Origin: Candidatus Zhuqueibacterota bacterium
GTDB taxonomy: Bacteria > Zhuqueibacterota > Zhuqueibacteria > JANLFK01 > Oleimicrobiaceae
NCBI GenBank assembly: GCA_024655945.1
Contig: JANLFK010000001.1
Span: 588,116 to 652,115 of the forward strand
DNA: 64,000 nucleotides
Direction of reading: 5' to 3'
The position numbers were made by a program, and so were the translations under genes. The notes under the pieces are model-generated. The model saw only the letters and a program-made list of their open reading frames with translations. It had not been told where the DNA came from and ran no database searches. Below are positions 4,209 through 63,102 of this stretch, piece after piece (the first letter of the stretch is position 1; every line of letters begins with the position of its first letter).

Positions 4209-4233
4209 GATTTCCGGCGGCCGGGGAACGACC

Positions 4234-5415: not shown

Positions 5416-8400
5416 ATGGACAGCGAGAGCACGTGGGATGGCACACGCGGACCTTGGCGGCGAAGGCCGAGGCTTGTGGTACCTCCCCTTCTGGGGCTTG
5501 TGCACTTTGCGGCGCCACTGCTGTTCTTCTTAGCGGCTCCCACCGTCTTATCAGCAGATGAACTGCAGCAGTACGGCGTAGGTCGCCGCGACACTACCTT
5601 TTACCGCGCCGGGCGCACACTGCACACCGCCGTTTACTACCCTGCCACCAGTTCCGGCAGCGGGGCCCCCCTGAACACCTCCGGAGCACCCTATCCCCTG
5701 CTGGTCTTCGCCATTGGCAAACGCATGCAGGTGGAACACTATCTGAGCTACTACGAACACCTGGCAGCCAGTGGCTATGTGGTGATGGCGCCTCAGTTTC
5801 CGGACGTGGACAGTCCCAGCGCCTACACCTGGAACGAGGACCTGCGCGATTGCATCACCCAGGCGCTGAATGCGCGCACCGTGCCAGGCTCCGTGTTCTA
5901 TCAGGCGATAGATCCCGGCAAGATAGGGCTCTTCGGCCACTCCTTCGGCGGCGGCACTGTGGTCGGCGTGGCCGCCGACGACGGCCGTGTGCGGGTGACC
6001 TGCGCCATCGCGCCCAATAACCCGGGCAACTACTCCTTCAACAAGATGCCCAATGTGCACACGCCCATTCACATACTCGGCGCCGAGCTGGACGCCATCA
6101 ACTCGGTGGAGGCCATCGGGCGCCCGCTCTACGAGCGAGGTAACCCCGACAAGGCCTTATTGGTGGTCAAGGGCGGCAACCACATGCAGTTTTCCGACTA
6201 TACCGGTTTTGACAGCGTGGATACACCCGCGACCATCACCCGCGCCCAGCAGCTGGCCATCACCAAGGAGCACCTGGTCAATCTCTTTGACGCTTACCTG
6301 AAGGGAAGAAGTAGCGCCCGGACACAGCTTTACGGCACCGCGACCCTCACCAAAGACAGCGTCTTTCTCTGGTTTGAAACGCAGGCAGCCAGCGCCTCTC
6401 GCCTGGTGTACGTTTCCGGAAACGGACAGAGCGCTCCCCCTGGACAGCTCACCCTCTTGCCGGTAGTGTTCAAGGTGGTGGATGCCCAAGGGAATGCGCT
6501 GCCCCGTCACACGGTGCACTTTCAAATCACGGCTGGCGGCGGCAGCCTGGCCGGACAGACCTGGCGGGACTTGGAGACCGACGCCGATGGTCTGGTAAGC
6601 ATCTATCCTCGTCTCGGACCCTCTGAAGGGGTGGCCAACAACCTCATCGCGGTGAGCGCGTACAAGGGCACGGCCCATCTCACCGACTCTCCCCAGACTG
6701 TGGCGCTCTCGGGCACGACGCAACCGCTGCGCCGCATTGTCGTGCACAGCGATCCTGCCACGCTCACATACCAAGTGGACAACGTCGCTTACTCCAGCCC
6801 ACAGACATTTCTCTGGCCGACGGGCAGCAGCCACACCGTTTCGGCACCCTCGCCGCAGGGTGAGGCGGCCGGCACGCGATTCGTCTTCTCCTCCTGGAGC
6901 GACGGCGGCGCCCTGTCCCACGCCTACACGGTGCCCGCGCGCGACGACACCCTTGTCGTCACCTTCCGGACCCAGTACCTGCTCACGTTGGCTTCTGCCT
7001 ACGGCGCGCCCACCGGTGGTGGATGGTACGATGCCGGCAGTGTGGCTTCCTTCCGCGTGGATCGTCATGTCCCGGCCGGCCAGGCTAGACGCATGAGCTT
7101 GAGCGGCTGGGTGGGCACTGGCTCCGGTTCCTACTCGGGCCCGGACTCCGCCGCCACCGTGACCATGCACGGGCCTGTCACCGAAACGGCTATCTGGCAC
7201 ACCGAATTTTTCCTCACCACTGCTCAGAACCCGCCTGCAGGGGGCACGGTTTCGCCGGCACCGCCTGGCGCCTGGTACGACAGCAGCGCCACGGTGACGC
7301 TGGTGGCCACGCCTGCTCCCGGCTACGCTTGGGGCAGCTGGTCCGGCACCATCAATAGCACCGTCAACCCTCTATCGTTTGTCATGACAGGGCCCACGGC
7401 AGCCACGGCGAATTTTGTTCGCCTCGCCCTGCTCACCTTTCGCACCGAACCACCTGGCCTGACCGTTGTGGTGGACACGGTCAGCTATGTCATACCGCGC
7501 ACTTTCTCGTGGCTCCCCGGCTCGGTGCACACTGTGTCTGCCACCTCGCCACAGGCAGGGGGCGCTGGGGTGCAATACCTCTTTGACTCGTGGAGCGACG
7601 GCAATCCACGCACGCACAACCTCGTCACACCGGCCCGGGACGACACGCTGGTGGCGCGTTTCCGCACGCAGTTTTTCCTTGCCGTGCAGTCGGCGCATGG
7701 CTCTCCGCGCGGTCAAGGGTGGTATGACAGCGGCGCGCAGGCAGCTTTCAGCGTCACCACCCCCGATTCACAGGCTGGCACGCGCCACCTGTTCCAGCAG
7801 TGGACAGGCGACTTCACGGGCACCTCTCCGTCTGGAACCGTGCTCATGGACCGGCCAAAAACCGTCACCGCCCTGTGGAAGACCCAACATTTGCTCACCG
7901 TGCTCAGTCCGTACTGCACGGCTTCCGGCGCCGGCTGGCACGACGAGGGTAGCCAGGCGCTCTTCCGCGTGCAGCCATGCGTCGTGTACGACAGCGCAGG
8001 CACCAGGCGGGTTTTTGCCGGATGGACCGGAACCGGGCCAGGTTCCTACACCGGCCCAGACAGCACAGGGACGATCGTGGTACAAGGTCCCGTCACCGAG
8101 GTGGCAAGCTGGCAGACTCAGTACCAGTTGACCGTCTCTTCCCCCTACGGCAGTCCTGTCGGCGCAGGTTGGTACCCGGCCGGTGCAACGGCCCATTTCG
8201 CCGTGACCTCGCCTGAAGTGGAAGGCCTGAGGCGCCACGTCTTCCGCCGCTGGAGCGGCCACTTTTCCGGCACTCAGCCGGCCGGGACACTGGTCATGCG
8301 CGGCCCGCGGACGGTCACCGCCGAGTGGGGCGACCAGTTCTACCTCGCCATCACCGCGGAGCCGCCCGAGGGCGGGACGGTGACTCCCCAACCTCCTGGC

Positions 8401-10587
8401 GACTGGTTCGAGGCGGACTCGGTGCTGCTCGTGCACGCCTCCCCTTCACCGGGATTTGCCTTTGGCGGCTGGGACGGGGATCTCAAGGGAAACGCCAACC
8501 CTGCTTCGCTTCTCATCGACCGGCCCAAAGAGGTCAGCGCGCTCTTTGTGCCCATGGGCATGGTGCGCGTCACCTCTGAACCAGAAAACCTGCTGGTCAT
8601 CGTGGATGGCACTTCGTGTCTGACGCCGCACGACTTTGTCTGGCAACCCGGTTCGGTGCACACCGTGGAGGCCGTGTCCCCCCAGCAATATGACCGCCTC
8701 AGGCACACCTTCCAGTTCTGGAACGACGGCGGCGCCCGGACCCACTCTGTGACGGTGACCGGACCGGCCGTGTTCGTCGCCCACTACCAGAAGGAGTTTT
8801 TCGTCGCCACGGCGTGTTCGCCTCCTGAGGGAGGGAGCATTGTGCCGCCGCCACCAGGCGCATGGGTTGCCGAGGGCGAAGCTCTTCTGCTCCAGGCCAC
8901 GGCAAATGGCGCCCAGGGTTACCTTTTCGCCGGCTGGAGCGGCGACCTTGTCGGGACAGACAACCCTGACACTCTGCTCGTCACCGAGCCGAAACAGGTC
9001 ACGGCGAACTTTGTGAAGATCGGGCACACCACGATCGCCACCGTACCCGAAGGCCTCTCTATAATCGTGGACGGCACCCGATACACTGCTCCGCAGGAGT
9101 TCGTCTGGGCCCCGGGGTCCAGTCACCTCATCGCCGTGGAGTCGCCACAGGCTGTGGCACCTGGCCTCCGCTACGTCTTCGAGGAGTGGAGCGACCACGG
9201 CGCTCAGAGCCACACCATCACTGCTTCAAGCGGGGCGTTCTACACCGCTTCCTTCCGGGCGGAGTACGCCGTATCCATCGCCGTCGAGCCGCAAGGAGCT
9301 GGCACGGTGGAGCTGTCACCCCCGGGTGGCTGGTACCAGGAAGGCGCTTCCGTAACCCTGACGGCGAGGCCCGACTCGGCGCAAGGCTATGAGTTCGCCC
9401 GGTGGAGCGGCCATTTGACCGGCAGCGACAACCCTGCGACCTTGGCGGTGGACTGCCCAAAGGCGGTGGTGGCGCACTTTGTGGCATCGGACGTGCTGCC
9501 GCCGCTTCTTGTCTATGTCTATCCCCCTGCCGGTGCCACCTTCGTGCCCACGAACACGGCAATTGATTTAGCTATCAGCGACAATCCTGGCGGACGCGGG
9601 CTCGACGCCAAGTCGGTCGTCGTCAGCGTGAACGGCACCACGGTCGTCAACGGCGGCTCGGTCCTGCCAGGACAGCAGGCCACCTTGCGCGTGCGCGACG
9701 GGCTGGCGACGTTGCATTTCGTGCCGGCTGTGCCACTTGCTCCCCAAAGGCCGGTTGAGGTCCGCGTGCAAGCGGCTGACCTGGCCTCGCGCCCGCACAC
9801 CCTCGACACCACCTTCACCTTCACCCTCGGGCCCTATCCGGTGCTCGTTACGGCCATGGAGACGATTGGCCCGCAGGGCGGCTTTGTAACCGACCCCGTG
9901 CACAAGCTGCAGATCAGCGTTCCTGCCGACGCCCTCTCCGACTCGACCACGATGACAATCGCCGTGGCTCCCAGCCCGCCACCGCTTCCGGACTCGCTTC
10001 TGGCTGTGGGTCCCACGTTCTACCTTGGACCGGACGGCCTGAGCTTCCTTGACTCGGTGACGGTGGCGATGCCCTACACCCAGGCCGACCTGGTGGCAAC
10101 AGGCGCCAATGAGCCATCGGCCATGCCGGTGTACCGCTTCGACACTGCACGTTCCCGGTGGGAGAGACTCCGAGTCGGCCGCGTCTACCGCAATTTCCTC
10201 CTGGTGCCGATGCGCAGCTTCTGCTACCTCCTCTTCTGCGGCCCGCGCGGCACGCAGGTGGTCACGGAACAGGCTCCGCTGCCGGAGGTCTTTGCGCTGC
10301 GCGGGGGCTTCCCCAACCCGTTCAACAGTGGTACCACCTTCGTTCTGGACCTCCCTCATCCCTGCGCGGTGAAATTGACCTTCTACGACGCCTCTGGCAG
10401 GAGAGTGGCGAGTGTCGATGCGGGGGTGCTGCCGGCGGGCAGCCATCGCCTGCCTTGGGAGGCCCGCGATGCCCGGGGAGACGCCTTGCCCACCGGCATC
10501 TACCTTTGCCGCGTGGAGGCAGGGGCGCCCGGTGCGTCTCGTTCCCCAGCCTTCATCGCCACCCGCAAAATCGCCTTAGTGCGCTGA
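5416..10587 (+). CDS. giant surface protein: cutinase/PETase-like alpha/beta hydrolase + Ig-like domain + about 10 InlB-B-like repeats + T9SS type-A C-terminal sorting domain
   Basis: Single 1723-aa ORF; N-terminal hydrophobic signal-like segment; nucleophile elbow GHSFGGG (Ser codon 5941-5943), Asp in GAELDAIN, His in GGNHMQF; repeats of type GGTVSP.PPG.W...VTL.A.P.PGY.F..WSG.....NP..L.M..P..V.A.F; C-terminus GGFPNPFNSGTTFVLDL...GIYLCRV. Confidence 0.85.
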   Translation: MDSESTWDGTRGPWRRRPRLVVPPLLGLVHFAAPLLFFLAAPTVLSADELQQYGVGRRDTTFYRAGRTLHTAVYYPATSSGSGAPLNTSGAPYPLLVFAIGKRMQVEHYLSYYEHLAASGYVVMAPQFPDVDSPSAYTWNEDLRDCITQALNARTVPGSVFYQAIDPGKIGLFGHSFGGGTVVGVAADDGRVRVTCAIAPNNPGNYSFNKMPNVHTPIHILGAELDAINSVEAIGRPLYERGNPDKALLVVKGGNHMQFSDYTGFDSVDTPATITRAQQLAITKEHLVNLFDAYLKGRSSARTQLYGTATLTKDSVFLWFETQAASASRLVYVSGNGQSAPPGQLTLLPVVFKVVDAQGNALPRHTVHFQITAGGGSLAGQTWRDLETDADGLVSIYPRLGPSEGVANNLIAVSAYKGTAHLTDSPQTVALSGTTQPLRRIVVHSDPATLTYQVDNVAYSSPQTFLWPTGSSHTVSAPSPQGEAAGTRFVFSSWSDGGALSHAYTVPARDDTLVVTFRTQYLLTLASAYGAPTGGGWYDAGSVASFRVDRHVPAGQARRMSLSGWVGTGSGSYSGPDSAATVTMHGPVTETAIWHTEFFLTTAQNPPAGGTVSPAPPGAWYDSSATVTLVATPAPGYAWGSWSGTINSTVNPLSFVMTGPTAATANFVRLALLTFRTEPPGLTVVVDTVSYVIPRTFSWLPGSVHTVSATSPQAGGAGVQYLFDSWSDGNPRTHNLVTPARDDTLVARFRTQFFLAVQSAHGSPRGQGWYDSGAQAAFSVTTPDSQAGTRHLFQQWTGDFTGTSPSGTVLMDRPKTVTALWKTQHLLTVLSPYCTASGAGWHDEGSQALFRVQPCVVYDSAGTRRVFAGWTGTGPGSYTGPDSTGTIVVQGPVTEVASWQTQYQLTVSSPYGSPVGAGWYPAGATAHFAVTSPEVEGLRRHVFRRWSGHFSGTQPAGTLVMRGPRTVTAEWGDQFYLAITAEPPEGGTVTPQPPGDWFEADSVLLVHASPSPGFAFGGWDGDLKGNANPASLLIDRPKEVSALFVPMGMVRVTSEPENLLVIVDGTSCLTPHDFVWQPGSVHTVEAVSPQQYDRLRHTFQFWNDGGARTHSVTVTGPAVFVAHYQKEFFVATACSPPEGGSIVPPPPGAWVAEGEALLLQATANGAQGYLFAGWSGDLVGTDNPDTLLVTEPKQVTANFVKIGHTTIATVPEGLSIIVDGTRYTAPQEFVWAPGSSHLIAVESPQAVAPGLRYVFEEWSDHGAQSHTITASSGAFYTASFRAEYAVSIAVEPQGAGTVELSPPGGWYQEGASVTLTARPDSAQGYEFARWSGHLTGSDNPATLAVDCPKAVVAHFVASDVLPPLLVYVYPPAGATFVPTNTAIDLAISDNPGGRGLDAKSVVVSVNGTTVVNGGSVLPGQQATLRVRDGLATLHFVPAVPLAPQRPVEVRVQAADLASRPHTLDTTFTFTLGPYPVLVTAMETIGPQGGFVTDPVHKLQISVPADALSDSTTMTIAVAPSPPPLPDSLLAVGPTFYLGPDGLSFLDSVTVAMPYTQADLVATGANEPSAMPVYRFDTARSRWERLRVGRVYRNFLLVPMRSFCYLLFCGPRGTQVVTEQAPLPEVFALRGGFPNPFNSGTTFVLDLPHPCAVKLTFYDASGRRVASVDAGVLPAGSHRLPWEARDARGDALPTGIYLCRVEAGAPGASRSPAFIATRKIALVR
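6700..9500 (+). repeat. tandem protein-domain repeats (InlB B-repeat-like, with Ig-like spacers) inside the giant CDS
   Basis: Recurring about 70-aa modules with conserved W/G/P positions seen at least 10 times in the translation; the DNA copies are divergent. Confidence 0.6.
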
Positions 10588-53049: not shown

Positions 53050-54825
53050 TCACTTCATCTTCCGCCGCATGGTGAGCACCACGCCGAGCGCCACAAAGCA
53101 GAGAGCCGGGAACCAGACGACGAAGAACTTGGCCAGCGACTTGCCAAAGGCGCTGGTCTCTTTGATGCGCCGCGCTTCGATGTTCTTGGCGCGGATGTGA
53201 ATGAGCTCATCGCCAAGCGTCAAGGCATCCACACTGTTCAGCAAGAGCGCCTTGTGGCTGTCCACGGCACGGAGCACGTCATCCTTGAACATGTTGCTGC
53301 AGCCGTAGGCGATGATCTTGGTCGGGGCGCCCGGTCCGGTAATGAGCGGCGCAGCCGTGCTGTCCACCCCAGAACCTTCGCTGGACCACTTCGGAGGCGG
53401 CTGGTCAAGGTAGCGAGCGCTGAAGGTTCCCTCAATCAGCACGCCGAGCGGCTGCCGCCGCAAAAAGTCGCCGGAGGCCGGCTCGGAGGTGTCCACAGGC
53501 CGATAACCCAGGCTCTCTGTAGTCCAACTATGGTTGCTTGAGGTAAAAAGTACGGTCGCCTTGAGATGGTCCTTTTCCAAGATCTCGTTGTACAGGTTCA
53601 GCCGGTTGCCGTACATGTAGAACAGCTCGGTGATCTTGTTGGCCACCGATACACGGCTGTTGATGTTCTCCTGGTTGACCTTGATGATGACCGGCTTGCT
53701 CACCGGCTCGTAGCTCTGCTCCTGGATCTGGAAGATACCCATGCGTCGGGTGCGGTAGGTAGGCACCTGGACGAAGGCGGCGCTGCGGTCCATGAAGATC
53801 TTGGTGTCGATCTCAAAGCCATAGTTCTTCGTTAGGCTGTTGATGTTGATGCGGGTAGGCATGGCCTGCACATCGAATCCCCCAGATGCGCCGCCGCGGG
53901 CGGGGTAGATCTGGTAGTTGTACGTCTGCCCCGCTAACACCAACCGCACGCCCTTGTGCACCAGCCGGTCGATTTCGTAGAGCTGCCGTTCGGTGAGCGG
54001 TTCGTCCACCATCATCACCATCGTCTGGATGTCGCCGGGGATGGTGTCATCCTTGGTGATGTTGGTGCGAACCACGTCATAGCCGGCGTTGCGCAGCAGC
54101 TCGACTGCCATGCTGTAGGCATCAGGCGGCGACTGTTGGAACTGGCGGTACTGCGGAGGAGTCTCGGGCTGGTCCGGGAAGAACCCCACCTTAGGCCGCT
54201 TGGTGGCAGTCAGCTTGTAGATGCGGGAGACGATCTCATATTCCAAGCTGCCGAACATCTCCGGCCGCACTTGCTCGATCACATCTTCCTTGCGGTCCAG
54301 GTAGGATAGGACAAGCGACGAGTAGATACGTTTGACGGCAAATTCGTCGCGCTCGGCGCTCTGCACGCCAAATGGCCCCACCCCCTTTTCCGCCAGTCGC
54401 TCGGCAATGCGTTTGCGCGGCGCGGGTTTGCTGGCTTGGCCCTTCTCCTCCTTCTCTTTGGCGCGGCGTTCCTCGTATGCTTCGCGCTCCTCCTCAGCAG
54501 AGGGGTCGAACACCTTGTAGGTGACCCTCCCCTTGGAGGCCAACTTCAGCTCCTCAAGCTTGTCGATGACGTCCCGCTCCAAGTTCTTCCACTTGGTCGG
54601 CATCTTCTCCGACGAGGAGACGTAGTAGGTGATTTCGATGGGCGCTTCTAACCGCGACAAAATCTTCTCCACCGAGGGCGAAAGTTTGTAGACCTGCTCG
54701 GCAGTCAGGTCGAAGCGACCGAGGTTGAGATTGTCGAAAACCATGATGACCAACAGGGCGATGCCCAAGAGCAGCCCTGAGCCGATCAAGAAGGTCCTAA
54801 TGAAGAGCTTGCGTAGGTTCTTCAT
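53050..54825 (-). CDS. gldG: GldG-family ABC transporter auxiliary component
   Basis: 591 aa, N- and C-terminal TM anchors, GldG-like periplasmic body; directly downstream of the permease gene. Confidence 0.85.
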   Translation of the reverse strand: MKNLRKLFIRTFLIGSGLLLGIALLVIMVFDNLNLGRFDLTAEQVYKLSPSVEKILSRLEAPIEITYYVSSSEKMPTKWKNLERDVIDKLEELKLASKGRVTYKVFDPSAEEEREAYEERRAKEKEEKGQASKPAPRKRIAERLAEKGVGPFGVQSAERDEFAVKRIYSSLVLSYLDRKEDVIEQVRPEMFGSLEYEIVSRIYKLTATKRPKVGFFPDQPETPPQYRQFQQSPPDAYSMAVELLRNAGYDVVRTNITKDDTIPGDIQTMVMMVDEPLTERQLYEIDRLVHKGVRLVLAGQTYNYQIYPARGGASGGFDVQAMPTRININSLTKNYGFEIDTKIFMDRSAAFVQVPTYRTRRMGIFQIQEQSYEPVSKPVIIKVNQENINSRVSVANKITELFYMYGNRLNLYNEILEKDHLKATVLFTSSNHSWTTESLGYRPVDTSEPASGDFLRRQPLGVLIEGTFSARYLDQPPPKWSSEGSGVDSTAAPLITGPGAPTKIIAYGCSNMFKDDVLRAVDSHKALLLNSVDALTLGDELIHIRAKNIEARRIKETSAFGKSLAKFFVVWFPALCFVALGVVLTMRRKMK

Positions 54826-54827
54826 GG

Positions 54828-55556
54828 CTAATACTTTCTCCCATCCAGGTACTTGATGTTCAACGTGATGAACAGAGCACTCAAGGAGAGGAAGTAAACG
54901 AGGCTGCGGACGTCAATCACGCCGCGAGCGATGTCGTTAAAGTGCCGGGTGACGCCCACGTAGCTGTACAAGAAATCGCCGAGACCAGGGAACCACCCGT
55001 CGATGACCATCGGCACGTACTGCCAGCCAATGAGGGCAAAGAACCCGCACACCAGGCTGGTAATAATCAGCGAAACGATCTGGTCGGCAAAGAAGCCGGA
55101 GATGAAGATGCCGACCGCCAAGTAGAAGGCGCCCAAGAGCACCGCGCCGAAGTAGCCACCGATGATGGGCCCAAAGTCCGGCTTGCCCAGGAACAGCAGC
55201 ATGATGGGAATCGCCAGCGTGCCAGCCAGCGCCACCAGGTAGAAGGCAAGGCCGGCCAAGTACTTGCCCAGCACCACGTGCTCGGCCTTCATGGGCAGCG
55301 TGAGCAGCAGTTCGATGGTGCCCAGCTTCTTCTCCTCAGACCACAGGCGCATGCAGATGGCCGGGATGAAGATCAGCGCCAAGGTCACCGGCAGCGCCGA
55401 GAAGAACGCGCGCATGTCGGCGTTGCCGAAGAAGAAGAAGTGAAACATGTACAAGCCGCAGTTGAGCACGATGAAGATGATGCTGAACACGTAAGCTATG
55501 GGTGAATAGAAGTAGGCGGCGAACTCCCGTTTGAAAATGATCCAGATGTCTTTCAT
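54828..55556 (-). CDS. gldF: ABC-2 type transporter permease (GldF-like)
   Basis: 242 aa, six TM helices, MKDIWIIFKREFAAYFYSPIAYVF. Confidence 0.85.
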   Translation of the reverse strand: MKDIWIIFKREFAAYFYSPIAYVFSIIFIVLNCGLYMFHFFFFGNADMRAFFSALPVTLALIFIPAICMRLWSEEKKLGTIELLLTLPMKAEHVVLGKYLAGLAFYLVALAGTLAIPIMLLFLGKPDFGPIIGGYFGAVLLGAFYLAVGIFISGFFADQIVSLIITSLVCGFFALIGWQYVPMVIDGWFPGLGDFLYSYVGVTRHFNDIARGVIDVRSLVYFLSLSALFITLNIKYLDGRKY

Positions 55557-55571
55557 GTCTCGCCTCCCTTC

Positions 55572-56549
55572 TTACGCCTGAGCTTGCTTTCCAGGCTGCC
55601 CGGCGCGCTCCTCTGCGCCGCCGCCTTGGGTGAGAAGGATGAACGAGTCCTCCAGCGACAGCTTCTCCGGATGGAACTCCAGAATGTCCCACTGGGCCTC
55701 ACGAATGACGCGGTTCAAATCCGCGATGAGGTCCTTGCCCGCGTCGTAAGAGAGGGTGCAGCGCGTCACGCCTCGCTCCCCACCGTCGCGGAAGGTGACG
55801 TCCAGGAGATTGTCCAGCCCCTTCAGGCGCTGCTCCACCTCCTTGCGCGGCGCTTTCACCGCCAAGGACAACGACGTGCGCGTTGCCAGCTTGTTGCGCA
55901 GCTCCTCGAAATTGCCGTCGGCCACCAGCCTGCCCTGGTTGATTACCAACACGCGATCCGCAACTGTGGCCACCTCCGGCAAGATGTGCGTGCTGAGGAT
56001 AATCGTCTTGTCGTGTGCCAACTTCTTGACCAGATTGCGGATGCCGATGATTTGCAGCGGGTCAAGACCCGAGGTGGGCTCGTCCAGAATCAGAACATCT
56101 GGGTCATGGATGAGCGCCTGGGCGAGGCAAGTGCGCTGGCGAAAACCTTTCGACAGCACGCCGATCTTGCGCTTGAGCACCGACTCCAGGCCGCAGGCCT
56201 CAATTACCCACGCCATGCGCTCGTTCAGCTTGCCGTTCAGGTGCCTGGCCTCGCCAATGAAGCGGAGGTACTCGGAGACCAACATGTCGGCGTACAGCGG
56301 CACTGTCTCCGGCAGGTACCCGATGATGCGGCGCACATCGTAGGGGTTTTCCAGCACGTCGTAGCCCCCCACCCGTGCCGTCCCCGAGGTGGGGGCCGTG
56401 TAGGTAGTGATAATCTTCATTGCCGTGGTCTTCCCGGCACCGTTCGGCCCCACAAAACCCACGATCTCACCCTTCTTGATCGTGCAGGTCACATCCTCGA
56501 GGGCAGTGGTCAAGCCGTACCGCTTGGTGAGGTTCTGCAGTTCGATCAT
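55572..56549 (-). CDS. gldA: ABC transporter ATP-binding protein (GldA-like)
   Basis: Walker A GPNGAGKTT, signature LSKGFRQR, Walker B VLILDEPTSGLD. Confidence 0.9.
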   Translation of the reverse strand: MIELQNLTKRYGLTTALEDVTCTIKKGEIVGFVGPNGAGKTTAMKIITTYTAPTSGTARVGGYDVLENPYDVRRIIGYLPETVPLYADMLVSEYLRFIGEARHLNGKLNERMAWVIEACGLESVLKRKIGVLSKGFRQRTCLAQALIHDPDVLILDEPTSGLDPLQIIGIRNLVKKLAHDKTIILSTHILPEVATVADRVLVINQGRLVADGNFEELRNKLATRTSLSLAVKAPRKEVEQRLKGLDNLLDVTFRDGGERGVTRCTLSYDAGKDLIADLNRVIREAQWDILEFHPEKLSLEDSFILLTQGGGAEERAGQPGKQAQA

Positions 56550-56693: not shown

Positions 56694-57024
56694 CCGAAAA
56701 GTGAGCTGGCAGGGAAGGAGCTGCGGGGAGTGTGGGAAGGCAGACGGTCGCCACCCCCAAGCGGCGACGGTGATCGCCTATGACGGACGGAGCTATCGGC
56801 CAGGGTTTCCCAGCAAGCGCCGGCGGAGAGCCTCCGGCGCCAACCTCGTGCACGAGGATGGACTCAGGCTGGTCTGCACCGCCCGTGTGGCGAAGAGGCG
56901 TGCCTTCGCCGGCCTGATCTGGCCGCCATGACGCCGTGTGGCACTCGCCTTTTGCTCCGATCATACCTGCTGCTCTCGCATGACGCTGGAGGCGCAAGCC
57001 AGTACCCCCATTCCGAGGTCACTC

Positions 57025-58083
57025 ATGCCAAGACAAACTTTGCAGGCCCAAAAAGTCCCGCGTCTGCTCAGTACCTTGAGGCACTCCACTCATCCGGCCA
57101 GGACCTGCCCCACTGCGCTGGCGGGCTTGCTTTTCTGGGGGCTTTTGCCAGGGACGAGCACCGCACAGAGTTGGAGCACGACTGGCAGAGTCGTTGGCTT
57201 TGAGACCGGAGCCACCATCTCGCTTGGCGCTTACAAGGCATACGCCAGCGCCTTTGTGAATCTTGCGCGAAGGCAGGGCACACCAGTCTTCCTTACCGGA
57301 AATGAGGGGCGCATTTACGCCTATTTGGGCAGGCGGCTCCTTTCCCCTAAGTACCTGGTGGTGCAGGCCACCCTCTACCCGCTGGCGACCCTCAGCAGCT
57401 ACGCGGAGACCTACCATCCGCGGCAGTTCGACCGCCTCGAAGTAGCAGGCTTCAACGTCTTGCGCTCCCTCGGCTCTGGCAGCGAGGAACCGTACGCGCT
57501 TTCCCTGCTGGTTGGCAACATCGCGTTCCTCGGTTACTACGAGCATGCGGAGGGCTCTGTGCGGGTTCGCCAGGCCGGTTCAGCGCTCGCCGGCCTGTTG
57601 CTCTCCACCGGCCACTGGCACATCCACGACAACATCCGTGTGAACGACCGCTGGTGGCAGGCGGAGCTGATCCTCAAAGGCACCTCAAGCCGCCCCGGCC
57701 TGGAGAAGCTGGAATGGAACTTTCGCGGCGGGGTGAAACTGCACGGCAATCACCTTGCCCCGGACGCTGTCGCCTTCGCCCTGTTTCGCGACGATGTTCA
57801 CTGGCAGGCACGTGGCTTTTCCCTCCTAGCCAACAGCCAAATCGCCTACGAGGTACGCTTCCCTCTTGACGAGCAAGACCAGGCCATGCCGTTTGTTGTC
57901 AGGCACCTGTTCAGATACGGGAAAAAGTTCCCACTGCGCATGGGGGGCAAGCGGATGGTCCCGCAACTCGGCGGCGGGGTCTTGTGGGAGTGGGTGCGAA
58001 GTTACGACCGCCAGGCACGACGGTTCCAGCCACACGGGGCCGGACAGTGGGTTTGGCTCATCCAGCCCACCGTCTCGTTTTGA
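57025..58083 (+). CDS. hypothetical outer-membrane beta-barrel-like protein
   Basis: ATG at 57025; signal MPRQTLQAQKVPRLLSTLRHSTHPARTCPTALAGLLFWGLLPGTSTAQS; C-terminal ...IQPTVSF. Confidence 0.55.
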   Translation: MPRQTLQAQKVPRLLSTLRHSTHPARTCPTALAGLLFWGLLPGTSTAQSWSTTGRVVGFETGATISLGAYKAYASAFVNLARRQGTPVFLTGNEGRIYAYLGRRLLSPKYLVVQATLYPLATLSSYAETYHPRQFDRLEVAGFNVLRSLGSGSEEPYALSLLVGNIAFLGYYEHAEGSVRVRQAGSALAGLLLSTGHWHIHDNIRVNDRWWQAELILKGTSSRPGLEKLEWNFRGGVKLHGNHLAPDAVAFALFRDDVHWQARGFSLLANSQIAYEVRFPLDEQDQAMPFVVRHLFRYGKKFPLRMGGKRMVPQLGGGVLWEWVRSYDRQARRFQPHGAGQWVWLIQPTVSF

Positions 58084-58126: not shown

Positions 58127-59527
58127 TCAGGGACGGGTCATCCTCAGGTCGTCGTAGAACTGCACCGACGTGCCAGAGGCAAAGTCCTGCGCCGCCAAGA
58201 CCAGTGCGTCCCACTGCTCGCCAGAGAGGTAGAACATGGAGGCCTTCTGTTCGCCGTCCACAAAGACGTTGCCATGCGGGTAGACCAGCTCCACGCGCAC
58301 TGTGTACCAGGTCAGGGGCTCGTAGGGTTGCAGCTCCGTGCGCTGGTCTTTTCTGGCGGCGTAAATGTGGCCATCTTCAGCGAATTCTATCCAATCGACA
58401 AAGGCGCCCCCTCCGGCAGCGCCACGGTTGAATAGGCCCACGACAGCCCCGCTGCCACCCTCTTGCAGCAACACGCTCACCTGGATGGTGAGGCTGTCTG
58501 CACGCCGCAGCGGCAAGAGGTCGCGCCTCGGGTGGCCCGGGGATGATTCCTGGCGAAAGCTCTGCGCGCCACTAAAGGCATAGGCTCTGCTCACGCCGCC
58601 GCCTACTCCCGGCGCCAGCACTTCCCACCCCCCAGCGGATGGGTAGGCGCCCACGGCGTACGTTTCAAAGTCCTCGGCCGCCAGCAGCGTAGCCAGCGCA
58701 ATCGTAACCTGCGCCATGGCAGTGTCGCCTTCGAACACCGCGAGCACGGCTTCCTGGCCAGTGGCCTGCAGCCCCGCCAGGAAGAGGCCGGTGTCGTCAA
58801 TGCTCCCGGCGATGCCTGGCTGCACGGACCAGACTGCGTGCTTGGTCACATCCACCTCTCGACCATCGGAGTAGTACGCAGTGCAGCGGAAGCGCTGGCT
58901 CAGGCCGTTCTTCAGGGGAGCAAAGTACGGACGCACCTCTAGCCAATAGAGCTGCGGCCCCACATCCCAGACCTGCACCGCGGCGCGGGCAGGTTCTCCT
59001 TCCCGCACCATGACCTCGCCTTCGCCCCAGTAGCGAATACTGTCGCCTTCGATCATGCCCACGCAGAGGTAGTTCAGCCCAACCACCCCTGTGACGGTCC
59101 CCTTGGCATAGTCCCCCTCGATGCTCAACGCCTGGTCGGCGACCACTCGGAAAAAGTCGCCAAGCAGCTTGCGCCATTCGGCCCAATACTTCAGGTCTCC
59201 TGGCCAGCTGTCGCGCGCGTGCACATATTTGTGGTACTCTTCCGACTCGAAGTGCTGCGACGCACTGTCATAGGCAGAAACGTCCAGGACCATCGCCCTG
59301 ACGATGTCCACCTTCTCCTGGCCAGTCCTTTTGGCGAGAGGTTGTGCCGGCGCAGAGGGCCGCTCCGGGACTTTGCCGATATGCGGTGCGCCTGCCGGGT
59401 CAAAGACAAAGCGCAGCGTGATGCTCGGCTCGCCTCCGTCACTGGTCGGCTGCTTGCTGCACTGCAAGGAGAGCATGAGGCTGCCCGCCGCAAGCAGGCA
59501 CGCGCCTATCGTCAATCTCGTCATCAT
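58127..59527 (-). CDS. lipoprotein with Ig-like (Big_2-type) and lectin-like regions (hypothetical)
   Basis: ATG at 59527 with AAGAGG upstream; lipobox MMTRLTIGACLLAAGSLMLSLQC; Big_2-like FRCTAYYSDGREVDVTKHAVWSV. Confidence 0.65.
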   Translation of the reverse strand: MMTRLTIGACLLAAGSLMLSLQCSKQPTSDGGEPSITLRFVFDPAGAPHIGKVPERPSAPAQPLAKRTGQEKVDIVRAMVLDVSAYDSASQHFESEEYHKYVHARDSWPGDLKYWAEWRKLLGDFFRVVADQALSIEGDYAKGTVTGVVGLNYLCVGMIEGDSIRYWGEGEVMVREGEPARAAVQVWDVGPQLYWLEVRPYFAPLKNGLSQRFRCTAYYSDGREVDVTKHAVWSVQPGIAGSIDDTGLFLAGLQATGQEAVLAVFEGDTAMAQVTIALATLLAAEDFETYAVGAYPSAGGWEVLAPGVGGGVSRAYAFSGAQSFRQESSPGHPRRDLLPLRRADSLTIQVSVLLQEGGSGAVVGLFNRGAAGGGAFVDWIEFAEDGHIYAARKDQRTELQPYEPLTWYTVRVELVYPHGNVFVDGEQKASMFYLSGEQWDALVLAAQDFASGTSVQFYDDLRMTRP

Positions 59528-59555
59528 GGAGAACCTCTTTCTTTCCCCCAAGGGG

Positions 59556-60680
59556 TCACAAAAAGTATCGGAACAAGGCATCCACCACAAAGCCTGTCAG
59601 ATGTGCTTTCTTCGGGCCGCTCTTGAGATTCCCGGTGTAGTAGCGGATGCCCAGGTCGCCGTCGATTTTGCTCCCCAATCTCAGCAGAGCGCCGCCGCCC
59701 AGGCCAACCAGGAGTGCGGAGCCGGTGCCATACTCATTGTCGCCGTACGCCTTCAGGTCCACCAGTGCCTTCGGGCGCGTGCCCTGCGCAGCGCCGAAGA
59801 GCATTTGCGAGGAGAACTCGAACTCGTTCCCGTTGCTGTTCTTGCGCTCCTCGGCAAACAGATCACCAATCCCTGTCTTGTTGCGGCCCTTCAGCCGCTC
59901 GCGCAACGTGAGGAGCAGATCGAAGGAACCCGGGCGTGCGAGCAGGCCGCCCTGGATGAGCAGACGGTTGCCGCTCTTGAACACCACCTGGCCTGCCCCC
60001 CTGTCTTTGCCATAGATGCTGTACACCAGGTCGGTGGTCAGGCGGGCGTCGTTGCCGAACAGGGTCAGGGCGCGATCGATGCCCGCCGACAGCGTCAGTT
60101 CGCCGCCAGGCTTGTACTCATAGTCCATCCCGTGGAACGGGCGGAAGGCACCTTTTGCTAAGTAACTGGCTCCTGCCCCCAAAACAAAGTCACCGAGCTC
60201 CGCCGCAGTGGCCAATCCCACATGGAGATCGAGGCCCTGGCCCATGTTGGGCACGCGGAAGCCTAAGGCATGCAACGCCAGCACGTTGGAAACGTTGAAC
60301 TCCTCTGCAGTAAGCGAGTGCCTGCCCGTGGGAAAGTTTGCGCCAAAGGTGAACAAGAAACGGCCATTCGGCGTCCAGTAGTGGCCGCTGATGCGCGTGT
60401 CGGAAAGCCCACCCAACTGGTTAGCGGCGACCGTGGTCAGCTTGGAAAAAGCTGGCGCCGTCGCCACCACCACCCGCATGCGCTCGTTGACCGGATACAC
60501 GAAGCTCACCGGTAAAGCGACCTGATTGACCTTGTTAGTACCAGCCGTCCACCACTGGCCAGTCACTCCCGCTCCCAAGGATACCCGGCTCTGCAGCCTG
60601 CTCAGCAGCGCTTGGGCCCGAGAAGCCCCAGGCATTAGCGCGCCGAGCAGCAGAATGTAAACAAGGGCGTCACGCTTCAT
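59556..60680 (-). CDS. porin-like outer-membrane beta-barrel protein
   Basis: ATG at 60680 with GAGGTG upstream; signal MKRDALVYILLLGALMPGASRAQA; Gly/aromatic-rich beta pattern; C-terminal ...ALFRYFL. Confidence 0.65.
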   Translation of the reverse strand: MKRDALVYILLLGALMPGASRAQALLSRLQSRVSLGAGVTGQWWTAGTNKVNQVALPVSFVYPVNERMRVVVATAPAFSKLTTVAANQLGGLSDTRISGHYWTPNGRFLFTFGANFPTGRHSLTAEEFNVSNVLALHALGFRVPNMGQGLDLHVGLATAAELGDFVLGAGASYLAKGAFRPFHGMDYEYKPGGELTLSAGIDRALTLFGNDARLTTDLVYSIYGKDRGAGQVVFKSGNRLLIQGGLLARPGSFDLLLTLRERLKGRNKTGIGDLFAEERKNSNGNEFEFSSQMLFGAAQGTRPKALVDLKAYGDNEYGTGSALLVGLGGGALLRLGSKIDGDLGIRYYTGNLKSGPKKAHLTGFVVDALFRYFL

Positions 60681-60706
60681 TTCAGCACCTCGCCACCGGT
60701 ATCTGT

Positions 60707-62020
60707 TCACTTGGGAATAGGAACCACCACTTCGATGCTGGCGCCAGAACCAAAGCTCGACTGGCTCTGCTCCTGCAGGGGTTGTCGCGCATCGACACCG
60801 GGCACAAATCCGGCGCTGAGCTGTTGCTGCGTCTGCTGCAGCCGGTCCAGAGTCGACGGTTTGAGCGCCTCGGCCACTGCCGGAGGTGGCTCGAGGGTCT
60901 TCTTCAGCTCCTGGATGTCCTGGCTGCCCACTTGCATCGCCTCCACCTGGGCTACCGCAGCGTTGGCAGCCTTGAACCTGGGGTCAAGTTCGGCTGCCTG
61001 TGCGTAGGCCTCCCGCGCAGCGTCACACATGCCACGATCTTCATAGTCCAGGCCCTTGCAGTAGGCCAAGAAGGCGAGCATGTTCTCCGTGGGGATGAGC
61101 AGGATCGCATCACGCTCTTCCTGGCTCAAGGGCACGCCGATTTGGTCGAGGATGCGGAAGACCAGCGCCTTCTCCATGCGGAAAAAGTCCTGCACAGAAC
61201 CGCTGATGCGGCGCGGGCCACTGATGGTGCGGCTCCTGGTGTCCACCAGGGCTGCCTCGATGCGCAGCTGCTCCCCTTCGAGGCCCAAGAATCCGCCCTG
61301 CACGACTTTGGCCACGCCCAGCAGGCGGCCCAGCCGCGGCGCAGTGGTTTCGTCGACCAGGCCAGTCATGCCCAGGACAATCTCCTCGAGCAAGGCCTGC
61401 ATCCTGGCCCGTTCGATGACGCGCAGCGCCTTCGCCTTGGACAGGTCGGTGATGAGCATCTCGGCTATGCCCTTCTCCAACGGGTCGAGCTCCTCGGGAC
61501 CGCCCAACCGGGCGAAGTTCAGCACAGCCACCGCATTGTGCGGGATGCGCACGGTATCAAGGGCTGCCTCATTGGCCAAGGCCTGCCGCGCCTGCTCGGC
61601 CAAGCGCCGCCGCAGCAGCACCTGCAGTCGCCCTTCCAAGGCGCGCCTCATCTGGCTCATGCCGCCCACGCGCGTGTACCGCCGGTACATGTCGATGGCC
61701 CCATCCAGGTCGCCGGTCAATTCGTACGCGGAGCCAAGGTAAAAGAGCGTGCGCGCGTCGGTGGAATCCAGCCGGAACGCCCTCCTCAGCACCGAGATCG
61801 CCGCGGCATAGTCCTCCTTGCCATAGAGGGCAATCCCTGTGTCGCGGAGAACAAGTGGGTCTGCGCGTCGCTGCTCTAAGGCGATGGCTAAGTGAAGGAG
61901 GGCAGCGTCGTAGTTTTGGCGGCGTAACTCGCTCTTCGCCTGGCCGTAGTGGGAAGCAGCGCATCCCATGAGGACCAGGCTCAGGCCCAAGGCAAAGCTC
62001 AGAACAAGACTTCTCCGCAC
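60707..62020 (-). CDS. lipoprotein with TPR repeats and CsgG/LpoB-like (TolB-N-like) domain
   Basis: GTG at 62020 six nt after AGGAGGAA; lipobox SLVLMGCAAS; TPR region; domain VAVLNF...GIAEMLITDLSKAKALRVIERARMQALLEE...GRLLGVAKVVQG; paralogous to 62057..62758. Confidence 0.7.
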   Translation of the reverse strand: MRRSLVLSFALGLSLVLMGCAASHYGQAKSELRRQNYDAALLHLAIALEQRRADPLVLRDTGIALYGKEDYAAAISVLRRAFRLDSTDARTLFYLGSAYELTGDLDGAIDMYRRYTRVGGMSQMRRALEGRLQVLLRRRLAEQARQALANEAALDTVRIPHNAVAVLNFARLGGPEELDPLEKGIAEMLITDLSKAKALRVIERARMQALLEEIVLGMTGLVDETTAPRLGRLLGVAKVVQGGFLGLEGEQLRIEAALVDTRSRTISGPRRISGSVQDFFRMEKALVFRILDQIGVPLSQEERDAILLIPTENMLAFLAYCKGLDYEDRGMCDAAREAYAQAAELDPRFKAANAAVAQVEAMQVGSQDIQELKKTLEPPPAVAEALKPSTLDRLQQTQQQLSAGFVPGVDARQPLQEQSQSSFGSGASIEVVVPIPK

Positions 62021-62056
62021 GAGGATTTCCTCCTGTGCCAATGGGCGCCAGGCCCG

Positions 62057-62758
62057 CTACTTGAGATGCACTTGGATCTGCATCAGGCGTTGCTTAGCTT
62101 GCGCGAAGGAAGGGCTCACGGCAAGGGCTTTGCGGTACATCTTGTAAGCCTCAAGAGGCTGGCCGCTGTCCTCAAATTCCAGCCCCTTGGCGTACAGGAC
62201 AGCCGCTTCAAAGGAAGCCTCGCCACTTTCCTCCAGCCGCGCGCGGTCCTCCTTGGTGAGCGCTACATCCAGGTCACGGACAATCTTCTCCGTGAGTCGC
62301 TTGACCATGTCGAACAGCTTGTCGACCTTGCCGGTCTCTTCTTCAGCCTTTATGGTCAAGCCGGTCTCCACTTCCACGATCCGGGCGTCGATGCGCATCT
62401 TTCCGCCGAACATGTGCACATAGCTGCCCAACAAGAGGTGCTTCGCTCCCAACAGGCGACCCACCTGCACCGCGCTCTTTTCGTCGATGAGGCCGGCCTG
62501 GGGCAACTTCATCTCTTCTAAGAGCTGCTGCAGCTGCGCGCGCTCAATCACCTGCAAGGCACGTACCTTGGCAAGCTCGGTGATGAACATGTCGGCCAAG
62601 CCCTTGCTCAGCGCAGCCACCTCGTCCTTCTGCGCCAAGCTGTTGTTCTGGAAGTAAAGCACCGCAAGGGTCTTCGCTTGTTGGGCACCTAAGGGGATGG
62701 CAGCAGTGACAAGAAGAATAGTCAACAGGAGTGCCAAGAGTCGTTTCGAAGCGCACAT
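62057..62758 (-). CDS. lipoprotein with CsgG/LpoB-like (TolB-N-like) domain and C-terminal TPR-like helices
   Basis: ATG at 62758 six nt after GGGAGG; signal MCASKRLLALLLTILLVTAAIPLGAQQ; LAVLYFQNNS...GLADMFITELAKVRALQVIERAQLQQLLEE...GRLLGAKHLLLGS. Confidence 0.7.
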   Translation of the reverse strand: MCASKRLLALLLTILLVTAAIPLGAQQAKTLAVLYFQNNSLAQKDEVAALSKGLADMFITELAKVRALQVIERAQLQQLLEEMKLPQAGLIDEKSAVQVGRLLGAKHLLLGSYVHMFGGKMRIDARIVEVETGLTIKAEEETGKVDKLFDMVKRLTEKIVRDLDVALTKEDRARLEESGEASFEAAVLYAKGLEFEDSGQPLEAYKMYRKALAVSPSFAQAKQRLMQIQVHLK

Positions 62759-63102
62759 AGTCAACCTCCCATTGGCTTGCAGGAACGGGTGGCTCCACCG
62801 GCAGAAAAAAGCAGGAGGCCCGGCTCAGCCTCTCAGCCGTCGTCCATCTGCCACTTTCCGTCCAATGCTAAGCAATTTGGCGGACAAATACAAGGATTTT
62901 CTGTTGGCCGTGCGAAAAACGGGGCATTGAGGAGCACCGAACTCTCGATCGCGGGCGAATGCCTGCCCCTGGCTTGTGCAGCCAGAAGCGAAAAGACCAC
63001 GTTCTCTTGCCTCGACTCTGGGCTATGCCCGGCTGTCCCCGGGAGGTTTGGCTGCACACCAGGCTGCAGGTTCGCGCCCGCAGCGGCGTGGGAGCGGCGC
63101 GA

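What the first reader, a model, noticed from the sequence alone, without database searches (positions are those of the whole stretch)
58127..62758. Envelope operon: tandem paralogous CsgG/LpoB-like TPR lipoproteins, a porin-like barrel and an Ig/lectin lipoprotein
Four minus-strand genes with 27-37 nt gaps. Two adjacent lipoproteins share a TolB-N/CsgG/LpoB-like domain (AVLxFxN...GLADMxITxL...VIERxxLxxLLEE...GRLLGA) combined with TPR helices in opposite domain order, then a porin-like beta-barrel and a 466-aa Big_2/lectin-like lipoprotein. The same small domain reappears in the C2-domain protein at 4234-5001. The architecture resembles secretion or assembly systems built around CsgG-like lipoproteins, but there is no obvious cargo.
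Basis: inference. Interest (0 to 1): 0.45.

Follow-up and report, generated by a model that had tools for sequence, protein, structure and literature searches.

The report
Conserved outer-membrane barrel–lipoprotein gene cassette
Four adjacent genes encode an uncharacterised outer-membrane assembly: a beta-barrel, two TPR proteins whose CsgG-type domain lacks CsgG's pore-forming hairpins, and a lipoprotein with a new conserved domain; the set recurs in the same order in dozens of uncultured bacteria and most resembles barrel-plus-lipoprotein-ring export gates, though its function is untested.

Summary
The four minus-strand genes are real. They are separated by 36, 26 and 28 nt.

- **G1** (233 aa) and **G2** (437 aa) are paralogues (35% identity, E 4e-31) sharing a CsgG/LpoB-type domain followed by TPR helices.
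- **G3** (374 aa) models as a 16–18-strand barrel.
- **G4** (466 aa) is a lipoprotein.

Three details in the finding are wrong:
- The domain order is colinear, not opposite. G2 is the G1 module plus extra N-terminal TPRs and a conserved C-terminal tail.
- G1 has an ordinary signal peptide, not a lipobox.
- The C2 protein at 4195–5001 shows no detectable copy of the domain.

The CsgG-like domain matches only the first half of the CsgG profile and lacks room for both transmembrane hairpins. It cannot form a CsgG pore; G3 is the membrane part.

Gene order is strongly conserved. G2 lies directly upstream of G3 in 36 of 37 loci. A lipoprotein with a new "domain X" lies directly downstream in 31 of 38. 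Flanking genes are unrelated housekeeping genes. The hosts are KSB1, Calditrichota, Gemmatimonadota and similar MAGs.

The barrel family has about 1,100 clusters and no Pfam, NCBIfam or PDB sequence relative.

Best reading: a PelBC/LptDE-like barrel-plus-periplasmic-lipoprotein complex with G4 as client or partner. Function remains inferred.

The parts
62057..62758 (-). G1: 233-aa secreted (signal peptidase I type) periplasmic protein; CsgG/LpoB-type alpha/beta domain followed by a short TPR
   Evidence: ORF and RBS GGGAGG. Pfam CsgG E 3.7e-17, LpoB 6.3e-5, TPR_1 3.7e-4. No lipobox.
62264..62686 (-). G1 CsgG-like alpha/beta domain (residues about 25-165), lacking CsgG transmembrane hairpins
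   Evidence: Matches CsgG profile positions 6-97 of 210 only. Family profile against PDB: CsgG E 0.018, LpoB 0.078; the alignment skips CsgG residues about 132-153.
60707..62020 (-). G2: 437-aa outer-membrane lipoprotein (lipobox LMGC); N-terminal TPRs, then a G1-like module, a low-complexity linker and a conserved C-terminal tail
   Evidence: The lipobox is conserved across the homologues (33 of 41 scored by a crude pattern). More than 160 full-length homologues.
61622..61927 (-). G2 N-terminal TPR block, absent from G1
   Evidence: Pfam TPR_16 1.1e-11, TPR_2 6.8e-10. PDB consensus-TPR hits.
61133..61549 (-). G2 CsgG-like alpha/beta domain
   Evidence: Pfam CsgG 1.2e-8, profile positions 36-102 of 210. 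Family HMM E 3.6e-54.
60710..60868 (-). G2 conserved C-terminal tail (...GFxPGxxSRxP...FG...IEVxVPIP) after a variable linker; putative docking peptide
   Evidence: Alignment of 40 G2 homologues. The motif is also present, in recognisable form, in three loci that lack domain X (L008, L039, L041).
59556..60680 (-). G3: 374-aa outer-membrane beta-barrel (16-18 strands) of an undescribed family
58127..59527 (-). G4: 466-aa lipoprotein; domain X, then a Big_2-like domain, then a weakly ConA-like C-terminal domain
   Evidence: The AF2 model is unusable (pLDDT 41).
58958..59338 (-). G4 domain X (residues about 64-190): the conserved, family-specific domain found only in the gene after the barrel
   Evidence: hhalign probability 99.3%, E 2.5e-20 between window-type and LamG-type G4 proteins. 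Alignment A7. No Pfam hit and no PDB hit.
62815..62832 (-). Terminator-like hairpin plus T-run between the upstream glutamine synthetase gene and G1; suggests G1 starts a separate transcription unit
   Evidence: This is a consensus scan only: 3 sites found against 4.0 expected by chance.

Best explanation
The four genes form one operon encoding a self-contained outer-membrane complex.

Shown:
- G3 is a 16-18-strand barrel of an undescribed family.
- G2 is a lipoprotein made of TPRs, a CsgG-type alpha/beta domain, more TPR, a flexible linker and a conserved C-terminal peptide.
- G1 is a shorter paralogue consisting of the alpha/beta domain plus TPR, without a lipid anchor.
- G4 is a lipoprotein with a family-specific 'domain X' plus variable lectin/Ig-like modules.
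- The order [G1]-G2-G3-G4 is conserved across distant uncultured lineages, while the flanking genes are not.

Inferred:
- The alpha/beta domain lacks CsgG's membrane hairpins, so it cannot make a pore.
- Like PelC under PelB, or LptE in LptD, G2 (with G1 where present) probably assembles on the periplasmic face of the barrel, possibly as a ring.
- G2's conserved tail probably docks onto the barrel's unusually long, conserved periplasmic turns.
- The TPRs act as the receiving scaffold.
- G4 is the dedicated client or partner. Domain X would be recognised, and G4 would be inserted or passed through the barrel so that its variable binding modules are displayed at the cell surface.

The confidence figure refers to this functional model. 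The composition of the complex is much better supported.
For: Operon structure: the genes are co-directional with gaps of 26-36 nt.

Paralogy and domain assignment. Pore hairpins absent.

Published comparison: CsgG-, PelC-, PqiC- and LptE-like lipoproteins share one alpha/beta core. Only CsgG has membrane strands. The PelC ring sits on the PelB barrel, and LptE plugs LptD (PMC13631591; PMC12141448).

Barrel: the model is a barrel and the best structural matches are 16-stranded.

Topology: counting strands back from the C-terminus puts the two long, most conserved insertions (residues 117-150, with a helix, and 176-193) on the periplasmic side. Most external loops are 2-6 residues (inference).

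Synteny:
- G2 lies directly upstream of G3 in 36 of 37 loci.
- The domain-X lipoprotein lies directly downstream in 31 of 38.
- G1 is present in 16 of 35.
- All four distant G2 homologues that were looked up have a G3 homologue beside them.

G2 tail: it is conserved, in recognisable form also in three loci without domain X (L008, L039, L041), which points to G3 as its partner.

G4: always a lipoprotein. It has one conserved domain plus variable Laminin_G, PEGA, Glucodextran_B and Big_2 modules.

Flanks: no synthase, amyloid subunit or ATPase recurs beside the cassette.
Against: - No experiment and no complex prediction supports the contacts or the ring.
- The G4 model failed, so domain X has no fold assignment.
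- Domain X is absent from the most distant loci (L006, L008, L009, L039-L043). The universal core is therefore G2+G3, and G4 cannot be the universal client.
- Residues after the lipid Cys of G4 do not clearly match the Bacteroidota surface-export signal, so surface exposure is unproven.
- Many of the loci come from related MAGs and are not independent.
Confidence: 0.4

Rival explanations
1. It is the outer-membrane gate of a synthase-dependent exopolysaccharide pathway (a PelBC, AlgK-AlgE, PgaA or BcsC analogue). The polymer is made by genes elsewhere in the genome, and G4 is a lectin-like accessory.
For: - TPR scaffold plus a 16-strand barrel plus a PelC-type domain.
- PelBC architecture (PMC12141448).
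- Lectin-like modules in G4 homologues.
Against: - No glycosyltransferase, synthase, c-di-GMP receptor or polymer-modifying enzyme recurs next to the cassette among 100 flanking genes from 32 loci. The neighbours are CarAB, fucosidases, GDPD and two-component genes.
- No sequence similarity to PelC or any polysaccharide porin.
- From general knowledge, known porins of this class are encoded inside the synthase operon.
Confidence: 0.15
2. It is a passive uptake channel. G3 is a substrate-specific porin and G4 is a surface glycan-binding lipoprotein that feeds it, as SusD or SGBPs do. G1/G2 are periplasmic scaffolds.
For: - Laminin_G, Glucodextran_B and ConA-like modules in G4 proteins.
- Fucosidases lie next to L003.
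Against: - Many cassettes have a short G4 of about 190 aa with domain X only and no binding module.
- The conserved features of the barrel are predicted to face the periplasm and the external loops are short.
- Ordinary porins do not need a dedicated TPR/CsgG-like lipoprotein.
- Glycan-degrading neighbours are not consistent across loci.
Confidence: 0.15
3. It is an envelope tethering or sensing module rather than a transporter. G2 and G1 use the LpoB/TolB-N-type domain and TPRs to contact peptidoglycan, a synthase or another periplasmic partner. The barrel is only the outer-membrane anchor.
For: - LpoB Pfam hit for G1 and LpoB in the PDB profile search (E 0.078).
- The same alpha/beta-plus-TPR module matches the periplasmic part of 'peptide modification system cyclases' (TIGR04510, E 2.5e-13).
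- The module occurs beside a Ser/Thr kinase in a T6SS cluster (L006) and in proteins of about 850 aa (L035).
Against: - The cassette has no output or enzymatic domain.
- The strict coupling to a dedicated barrel and, in most lineages, to a dedicated lipoprotein is not explained.
- The NCBIfam LpoB and TolB scores are far below their cut-offs.
Confidence: 0.15
4. It is a true curli-type CsgG secretion channel for an amyloid subunit.
For: The Pfam CsgG score is above the gathering threshold for G1 and G2. NCBI names a homologue 'CsgG/HfaB family protein'.
Against: - Only the first half of the CsgG profile matches.
- There is no room for either transmembrane hairpin.
- G1 is not lipidated.
- No CsgA/B/E/F-like or HfaA/D-like genes lie in or near the cassette.
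- A separate barrel is always present.
Confidence: 0.03

Closest known systems
PelB-PelC outer-membrane Pel export complex (Pseudomonas aeruginosa; PDB 9H80)
   Different: - Here the TPRs are fused to the alpha/beta domain (G2, G1), not to the barrel.
- There is no sequence similarity to PelC or PelB.
- There are no pel or other synthase genes nearby.
- An extra dedicated lipoprotein (G4) follows the barrel.
- Ring formation is untested.
CsgG curli secretion channel (Pfam PF03783)
   Same: This is the only family with significant sequence similarity to the shared domain: Pfam E 3.7e-17 and 1.2e-8. It is also the best PDB profile hit (E 0.018). G2 is a lipoprotein, as CsgG is.
   Different: - The match covers only profile positions 6-102 of 210.
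- Both hairpins that build CsgG's 36-strand pore are missing (PMC13631591).
- There are no curli genes.
- A separate barrel supplies the membrane part.
LptD-LptE plug-and-barrel, and AlgK-AlgE
   Same: A dedicated outer-membrane barrel is encoded together with a lipoprotein that works at or in it. LptE has the same alpha/beta core class (PMC13631591). AlgK is a TPR lipoprotein partnered with a barrel (general knowledge).
   Different: G3 is far smaller than the 26-strand LptD (general knowledge). There is no sequence relation. The cargo of those systems (LPS, alginate) has no counterpart in the neighbourhood.
Slam (TPR + DUF560 barrel) surface-lipoprotein translocon and two-partner secretion (TpsB/TpsA)
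   Different: There is no DUF560, POTRA or TPS domain. In Slam the TPR is fused to the barrel (general knowledge). Surface exposure of G4 is not shown.

Membership tests
CsgG (PF03783) curli-type channel | Pfam score above the gathering threshold | tested here: met
   G1 scores 62.8 bits and G2 34.9 bits against a cut-off of 20.8.
CsgG (PF03783) curli-type channel | Full domain including the two transmembrane hairpins that form the 36-strand pore | tested here: not met
   Only profile positions 6-97 (G1) and 36-102 (G2) of 210 are matched. In the alignment to 4UV3 the family profile jumps over CsgG residues about 132-153, and only about 25 residues remain after the last shared strand, against about 84 in CsgG.
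CsgG (PF03783) curli-type channel | N-terminal lipidation | tested here: inconclusive
   G2 has the lipobox LMGC, conserved in its homologues. G1 has none.
CsgG (PF03783) curli-type channel | Curli or holdfast partner genes (csgA/B/E/F or hfaA/D) in the operon | tested here: not met
   No such families appear in the cassette or in 100 flanking genes.
PelC / PelBC | Sequence relationship to PelC | tested here: not met
   The profile of 51 domain sequences against all PDB chains at E<=10 finds CsgG and LpoB but no PelC entry.
PelC / PelBC | Partner is a 16-strand barrel associated with TPRs | tested here: met
PelC / PelBC | Oligomeric periplasmic ring under the barrel | not testable with these tools
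   Only monomer prediction was available.
PelC / PelBC | Encoded within a polysaccharide synthase operon | tested here: not met
   No synthase genes lie in the window region or in related loci.
LpoB (PF13036 / TIGR02722) | Family model score above the cut-off | tested here: inconclusive
   Pfam LpoB gives 23.3 bits against 22.3 for G1 only. The NCBIfam equivalog gives 15 against 110.55.
Omp85 / TpsB | POTRA domains N-terminal to a 16-strand barrel | tested here: not met
   G3 is 374 aa, barrel only, with no Pfam hit. CdiB is merely the best fold match.
Slam (DUF560) | DUF560 barrel with a fused N-terminal TPR | tested here: not met
   None of 15 G3 members hits DUF560 at E<=10. The TPR is on a separate protein.
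ConA-like lectin / Laminin_G (G4) | Significant family hit | tested here: inconclusive
   For the window's G4, PF06439 at E 0.039 is the best hit. Laminin_G_3 is significant in 11 of 27 homologues, but hhalign aligns only domain X between the two G4 types.
Big_2 (G4) | Significant family hit | tested here: inconclusive
   The window's G4 has no hit. The L007 orthologue aligns over G4 residues 10-274 and hits Big_2 at E 0.0028, below the cut-off.

The most novel reading that the evidence does not exclude
The cassette is a previously undescribed translocon found across several phyla (KSB1, Calditrichota, Rhodothermales-like, Gemmatimonadota). In it, a new barrel family and a TPR-plus-PelC-like lipoprotein ring deliver a dedicated lipoprotein to the cell surface. 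It would be a functional analogue of Slam or two-partner secretion built from unrelated parts.
Probability: 0.2. Interest if true: 0.75.

Novelty: new variant of a known kind. Interest (0 to 1): 0.5.

Why it matters
How lipoproteins and other clients cross or are mounted on the outer membrane outside the Proteobacteria is poorly understood.

This cassette defines three things:
- a sizeable barrel family (about 1,100 clusters at 50% identity) with no annotation;
- a new conserved lipoprotein domain;
- a new use of the CsgG/PelC/LptE-type core, fused to TPRs and always paired with a barrel.

It gives a compact set of three or four genes that could be co-folded or reconstituted. That would test whether ring-plus-barrel gates of the PelBC type are a general design rather than a peculiarity of the Pel system.

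Tried and rejected
- **AFDB search.** Foldseek against afdb50 for the barrel was unavailable.
- **Foldseek against PDB for G3.** It returned only generic barrels with TM <= 0.44.
- **Profile searches of PDB.** The barrel profile found nothing. The domain X profile found nothing significant.
- **Surface-export signal.** I counted acidic residues after the lipid Cys. G4 has more than G2 (36% against 3% with an acidic residue at +2..+6), but there is no clear motif. The result is inconclusive.
- **C2 protein.** The claimed extra copy of the domain was rejected.
- **Barrel paralogy.** Similarity between G3 and the convergent ORF 56938-58083 was rejected.
- **Literature.** Searches for a described TPR + CsgG-like lipoprotein + barrel system found nothing matching.
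- **Flanking genes.** Enrichment analysis found only lineage-specific housekeeping synteny.
Full report
**What is in the sequence**

Between 58127 and 62758 there are four co-directional minus-strand ORFs. Reading the DNA gives the following starts.

| Gene | Coordinates | Start context | Length |
|---|---|---|---|
| G1 | 62758..62057 | ATG after GGGAGG | 233 aa |
| G2 | 62020..60707 | GTG after AGGAGG | 437 aa |
| G3 | 60680..59556 | ATG | 374 aa |
| G4 | 59527..58127 | ATG | 466 aa |

The gaps are 36, 26 and 28 nt. A terminator-like hairpin (62832-62815) lies between the upstream glutamine synthetase gene and G1. That scan found 3 sites against 4.0 expected by chance, so it is only a hint that G1 opens the transcription unit. 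The host is an uncultured KSB1/Calditrichota-like bacterium. Identical proteins are recorded from a MAG, and close relatives are labelled KSB1 or Calditrichaeota.

**G1 and G2**

G1 and G2 are paralogues: 35% identity over 214 residues, E 4e-31.

The alignment is colinear. G1 residues 18-231 match residues 161-367 of the 444-aa G2 ORF, which starts 7 codons upstream of the GTG start used here. G2 is an extra N-terminal TPR block, then a G1-like module, then a low-complexity linker and a tail.

Both proteins exceed the Pfam CsgG gathering score (62.8 and 34.9 bits against 20.8). G1 marginally exceeds the LpoB score. Only CsgG profile positions 6-97 (G1) and 36-102 (G2) of 210 are matched.

A profile of 51 family domains (A4) finds CsgG (E 0.018) and LpoB (E 0.078) among all PDB chains. 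In that alignment about ten family residues replace CsgG residues about 132-153. Only about 25 residues follow the last shared strand, where CsgG has about 84. From general knowledge (Goyal et al. 2014), those are the regions of CsgG's two transmembrane hairpins. PMC13631591 states that each CsgG subunit contributes four strands to a 36-strand pore. It also states that these segments are absent from the related PelC- and PqiC-like lipoproteins, which share the same alpha/beta core with LptE. G1 and G2 therefore have the non-pore version of this core.

G2 has a lipobox (LMGC) that is conserved in its homologues. G1 has an ordinary signal peptide and no lipobox, as do most of its homologues.

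G2 also ends in a conserved peptide (...GFxPGxxSRxP...FG...IEVxVPIP) behind a linker of very variable length.

The shared alpha/beta-plus-TPR module also matches the periplasmic part of TIGR04510 cyclases (E 2.5e-13, far below that model's cut-off).

**G3**

G3 has no Pfam or NCBIfam hit and no PDB sequence relative.

This fixes the class of barrel but not the family.

Counting DSSP strands back from the C-terminal strand, most external loops are 2-6 residues. The two long insertions, residues 117-150 (with a helix) and 176-193, fall on the periplasmic side. These insertions carry many of the invariant residues (P117, G119, E127, P144, G147-Q148-G149, P181, Y189, P191). One conserved loop (265-285, ERKNSNGNE) is external or lies in the lumen. 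This orientation is an inference from topology rules.

An exhaustive HMM search finds 1,341 clusters at 50% identity (1,091 at E<=1e-10) of uniform length, about 365-395 aa. Sampled members come only from metagenomes or MAGs.

**G4**

G4 has an invariant lipid-anchor Cys.

Its residues 64-190 form a conserved 'domain X'. This domain aligns with the C-terminal domain of the differently built downstream lipoproteins of other loci (hhalign probability 99.3%, E 2.5e-20). Domain X has no Pfam hit and no PDB relative.

The rest of the protein is variable. Across 27 homologues Pfam finds Laminin_G_3 (11), Laminin_G_2 (5), PEGA (3), Glucodextran_B (3) and Big_2 (1).

In the window's own G4 the Big_2-like and lectin-like parts are supported only weakly. 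The structure model failed (pLDDT 41).

**Conservation**

Loci were retrieved through the barrel and, independently, through distant G2 homologues. HMM and phmmer mapping of all ORFs gives these counts.

| Arrangement | Loci |
|---|---|
| G2-type gene directly upstream of the barrel gene | 36 of 37 |
| G1-type gene directly upstream of G2 | 16 of 35 |
| Domain-X lipoprotein directly downstream of the barrel gene | 31 of 38 |

Notes on the exceptions and subtypes:

- In the one exception for G2 (L009), a T9SS-type cargo gene is inserted between G2 and the barrel.
- G1-type genes occur elsewhere in the cluster in L001, L009, L042 and L043.
- Two subtypes recur, sometimes in the same genome. One is G2-G3-short G4 (about 190 aa, domain X only). 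The other is G1-G2-G3-long G4 (about 400 aa with Laminin_G). All 12 scorable G1-containing cassettes with a domain-X gene have the long form.
- Domain X is missing from the most distant loci (Gemmatimonadota, L006, L008, L009, L039), so the universal core is G2+G3.
- The G2 tail motif is still recognisable in three loci without domain X (L008, L039, L041), which points to G3 as its partner.

Flanking genes are unrelated to one another in function: CarAB, fucosidases, GDPD and two-component genes. The cassette is therefore autonomous, and no synthase, amyloid subunit or ATPase travels with it. Many loci come from related MAGs, so the counts overstate independence. The G2 identities nevertheless go down to about 35-40%.

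**Interpretation**

The best-supported model is a barrel with a periplasmic lipoprotein assembly of the PelBC/LptDE type.

In PelBC, twelve PelC subunits form a ring under the 16-strand PelB barrel, and the TPRs of PelB sit in that ring and are needed for its assembly (PMC12141448). Here the same three ingredients are distributed differently: the TPRs are fused to the PelC-like core.

The domain-X lipoprotein is always encoded after the barrel. It combines one conserved domain with variable binding modules. That is the pattern of a dedicated client or partner, as in Slam or two-partner secretion (general knowledge).

Composition and synteny are shown. The ring, the docking of the tail and the fate of G4 are inferred.

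The rivals, listed with their evidence in the rival explanations, cannot be excluded:
- polysaccharide export with a distant synthase;
- a lectin-assisted porin;
- an envelope tether or sensor.

A true curli-type channel is contradicted by the missing pore segments.

**Verdict**

Three of its details are wrong, and the system is not built around a CsgG channel. It is an undescribed variant of the barrel-plus-lipoprotein outer-membrane machines, of moderate interest.

Noticed in passing
L001 4913-6501 (also L002): A restriction-modification pair (N6_N4 methyltransferase plus a BglII-like endonuclease) is inserted between the G1 and G2 homologues, splitting an otherwise contiguous cassette.
   Followed up: no
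L006 3949-9442: A G1-like protein (350 aa), a G2 homologue and a G3 homologue split into two ORFs lie inside a type VI secretion cluster (ClpV, VgrG, DUF2169, PAAR), directly after a Ser/Thr protein kinase. This hints at a signalling use of the module.
   Followed up: partly
L009 8493-15257: A 1591-aa BNR/sortilin-type protein with a T9SS C-terminal sorting domain sits between the G2 and G3 homologues, and a G1-like gene follows the barrel.
   Followed up: partly
L039 2955-11010; L035 213-5320: L039 has four CsgG-like/TPR paralogues around one barrel. L035 has two proteins of about 850 aa that carry the G1-like module near their N-terminus.
   Followed up: no
window 56938-58083 (+): This ORF converges on the end of G4. 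It has a signal-peptide-like N-terminus and ends ...PTVSF, like an outer-membrane protein. It has no Pfam hit, is not similar to G3, and is conserved only in the closest relatives, L005 and L010.
   Followed up: partly
window 4195-5001 (+): A secreted protein with a eukaryote-type C2 domain (Pfam E 3.5e-13, residues 156-244). Its N-terminal half has no detectable family and is not related to the G1/G2 domain.
   Followed up: partly
window 53050-56549 (-): An ABC ATPase, an ABC-2 permease and a 591-aa ORF follow downstream. The syntenic genes in L005 hit ABC_tran, ABC2_membrane, ABC_transp_aux/DUF7088 and DUF4340, a gliding-type GldA/F/G-like set. The synteny holds only in close relatives.
   Followed up: no
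window 5416-10587 (+): A very large (1723 aa) repetitive secreted protein lies next to the C2 protein. It was not analysed.
   Followed up: no
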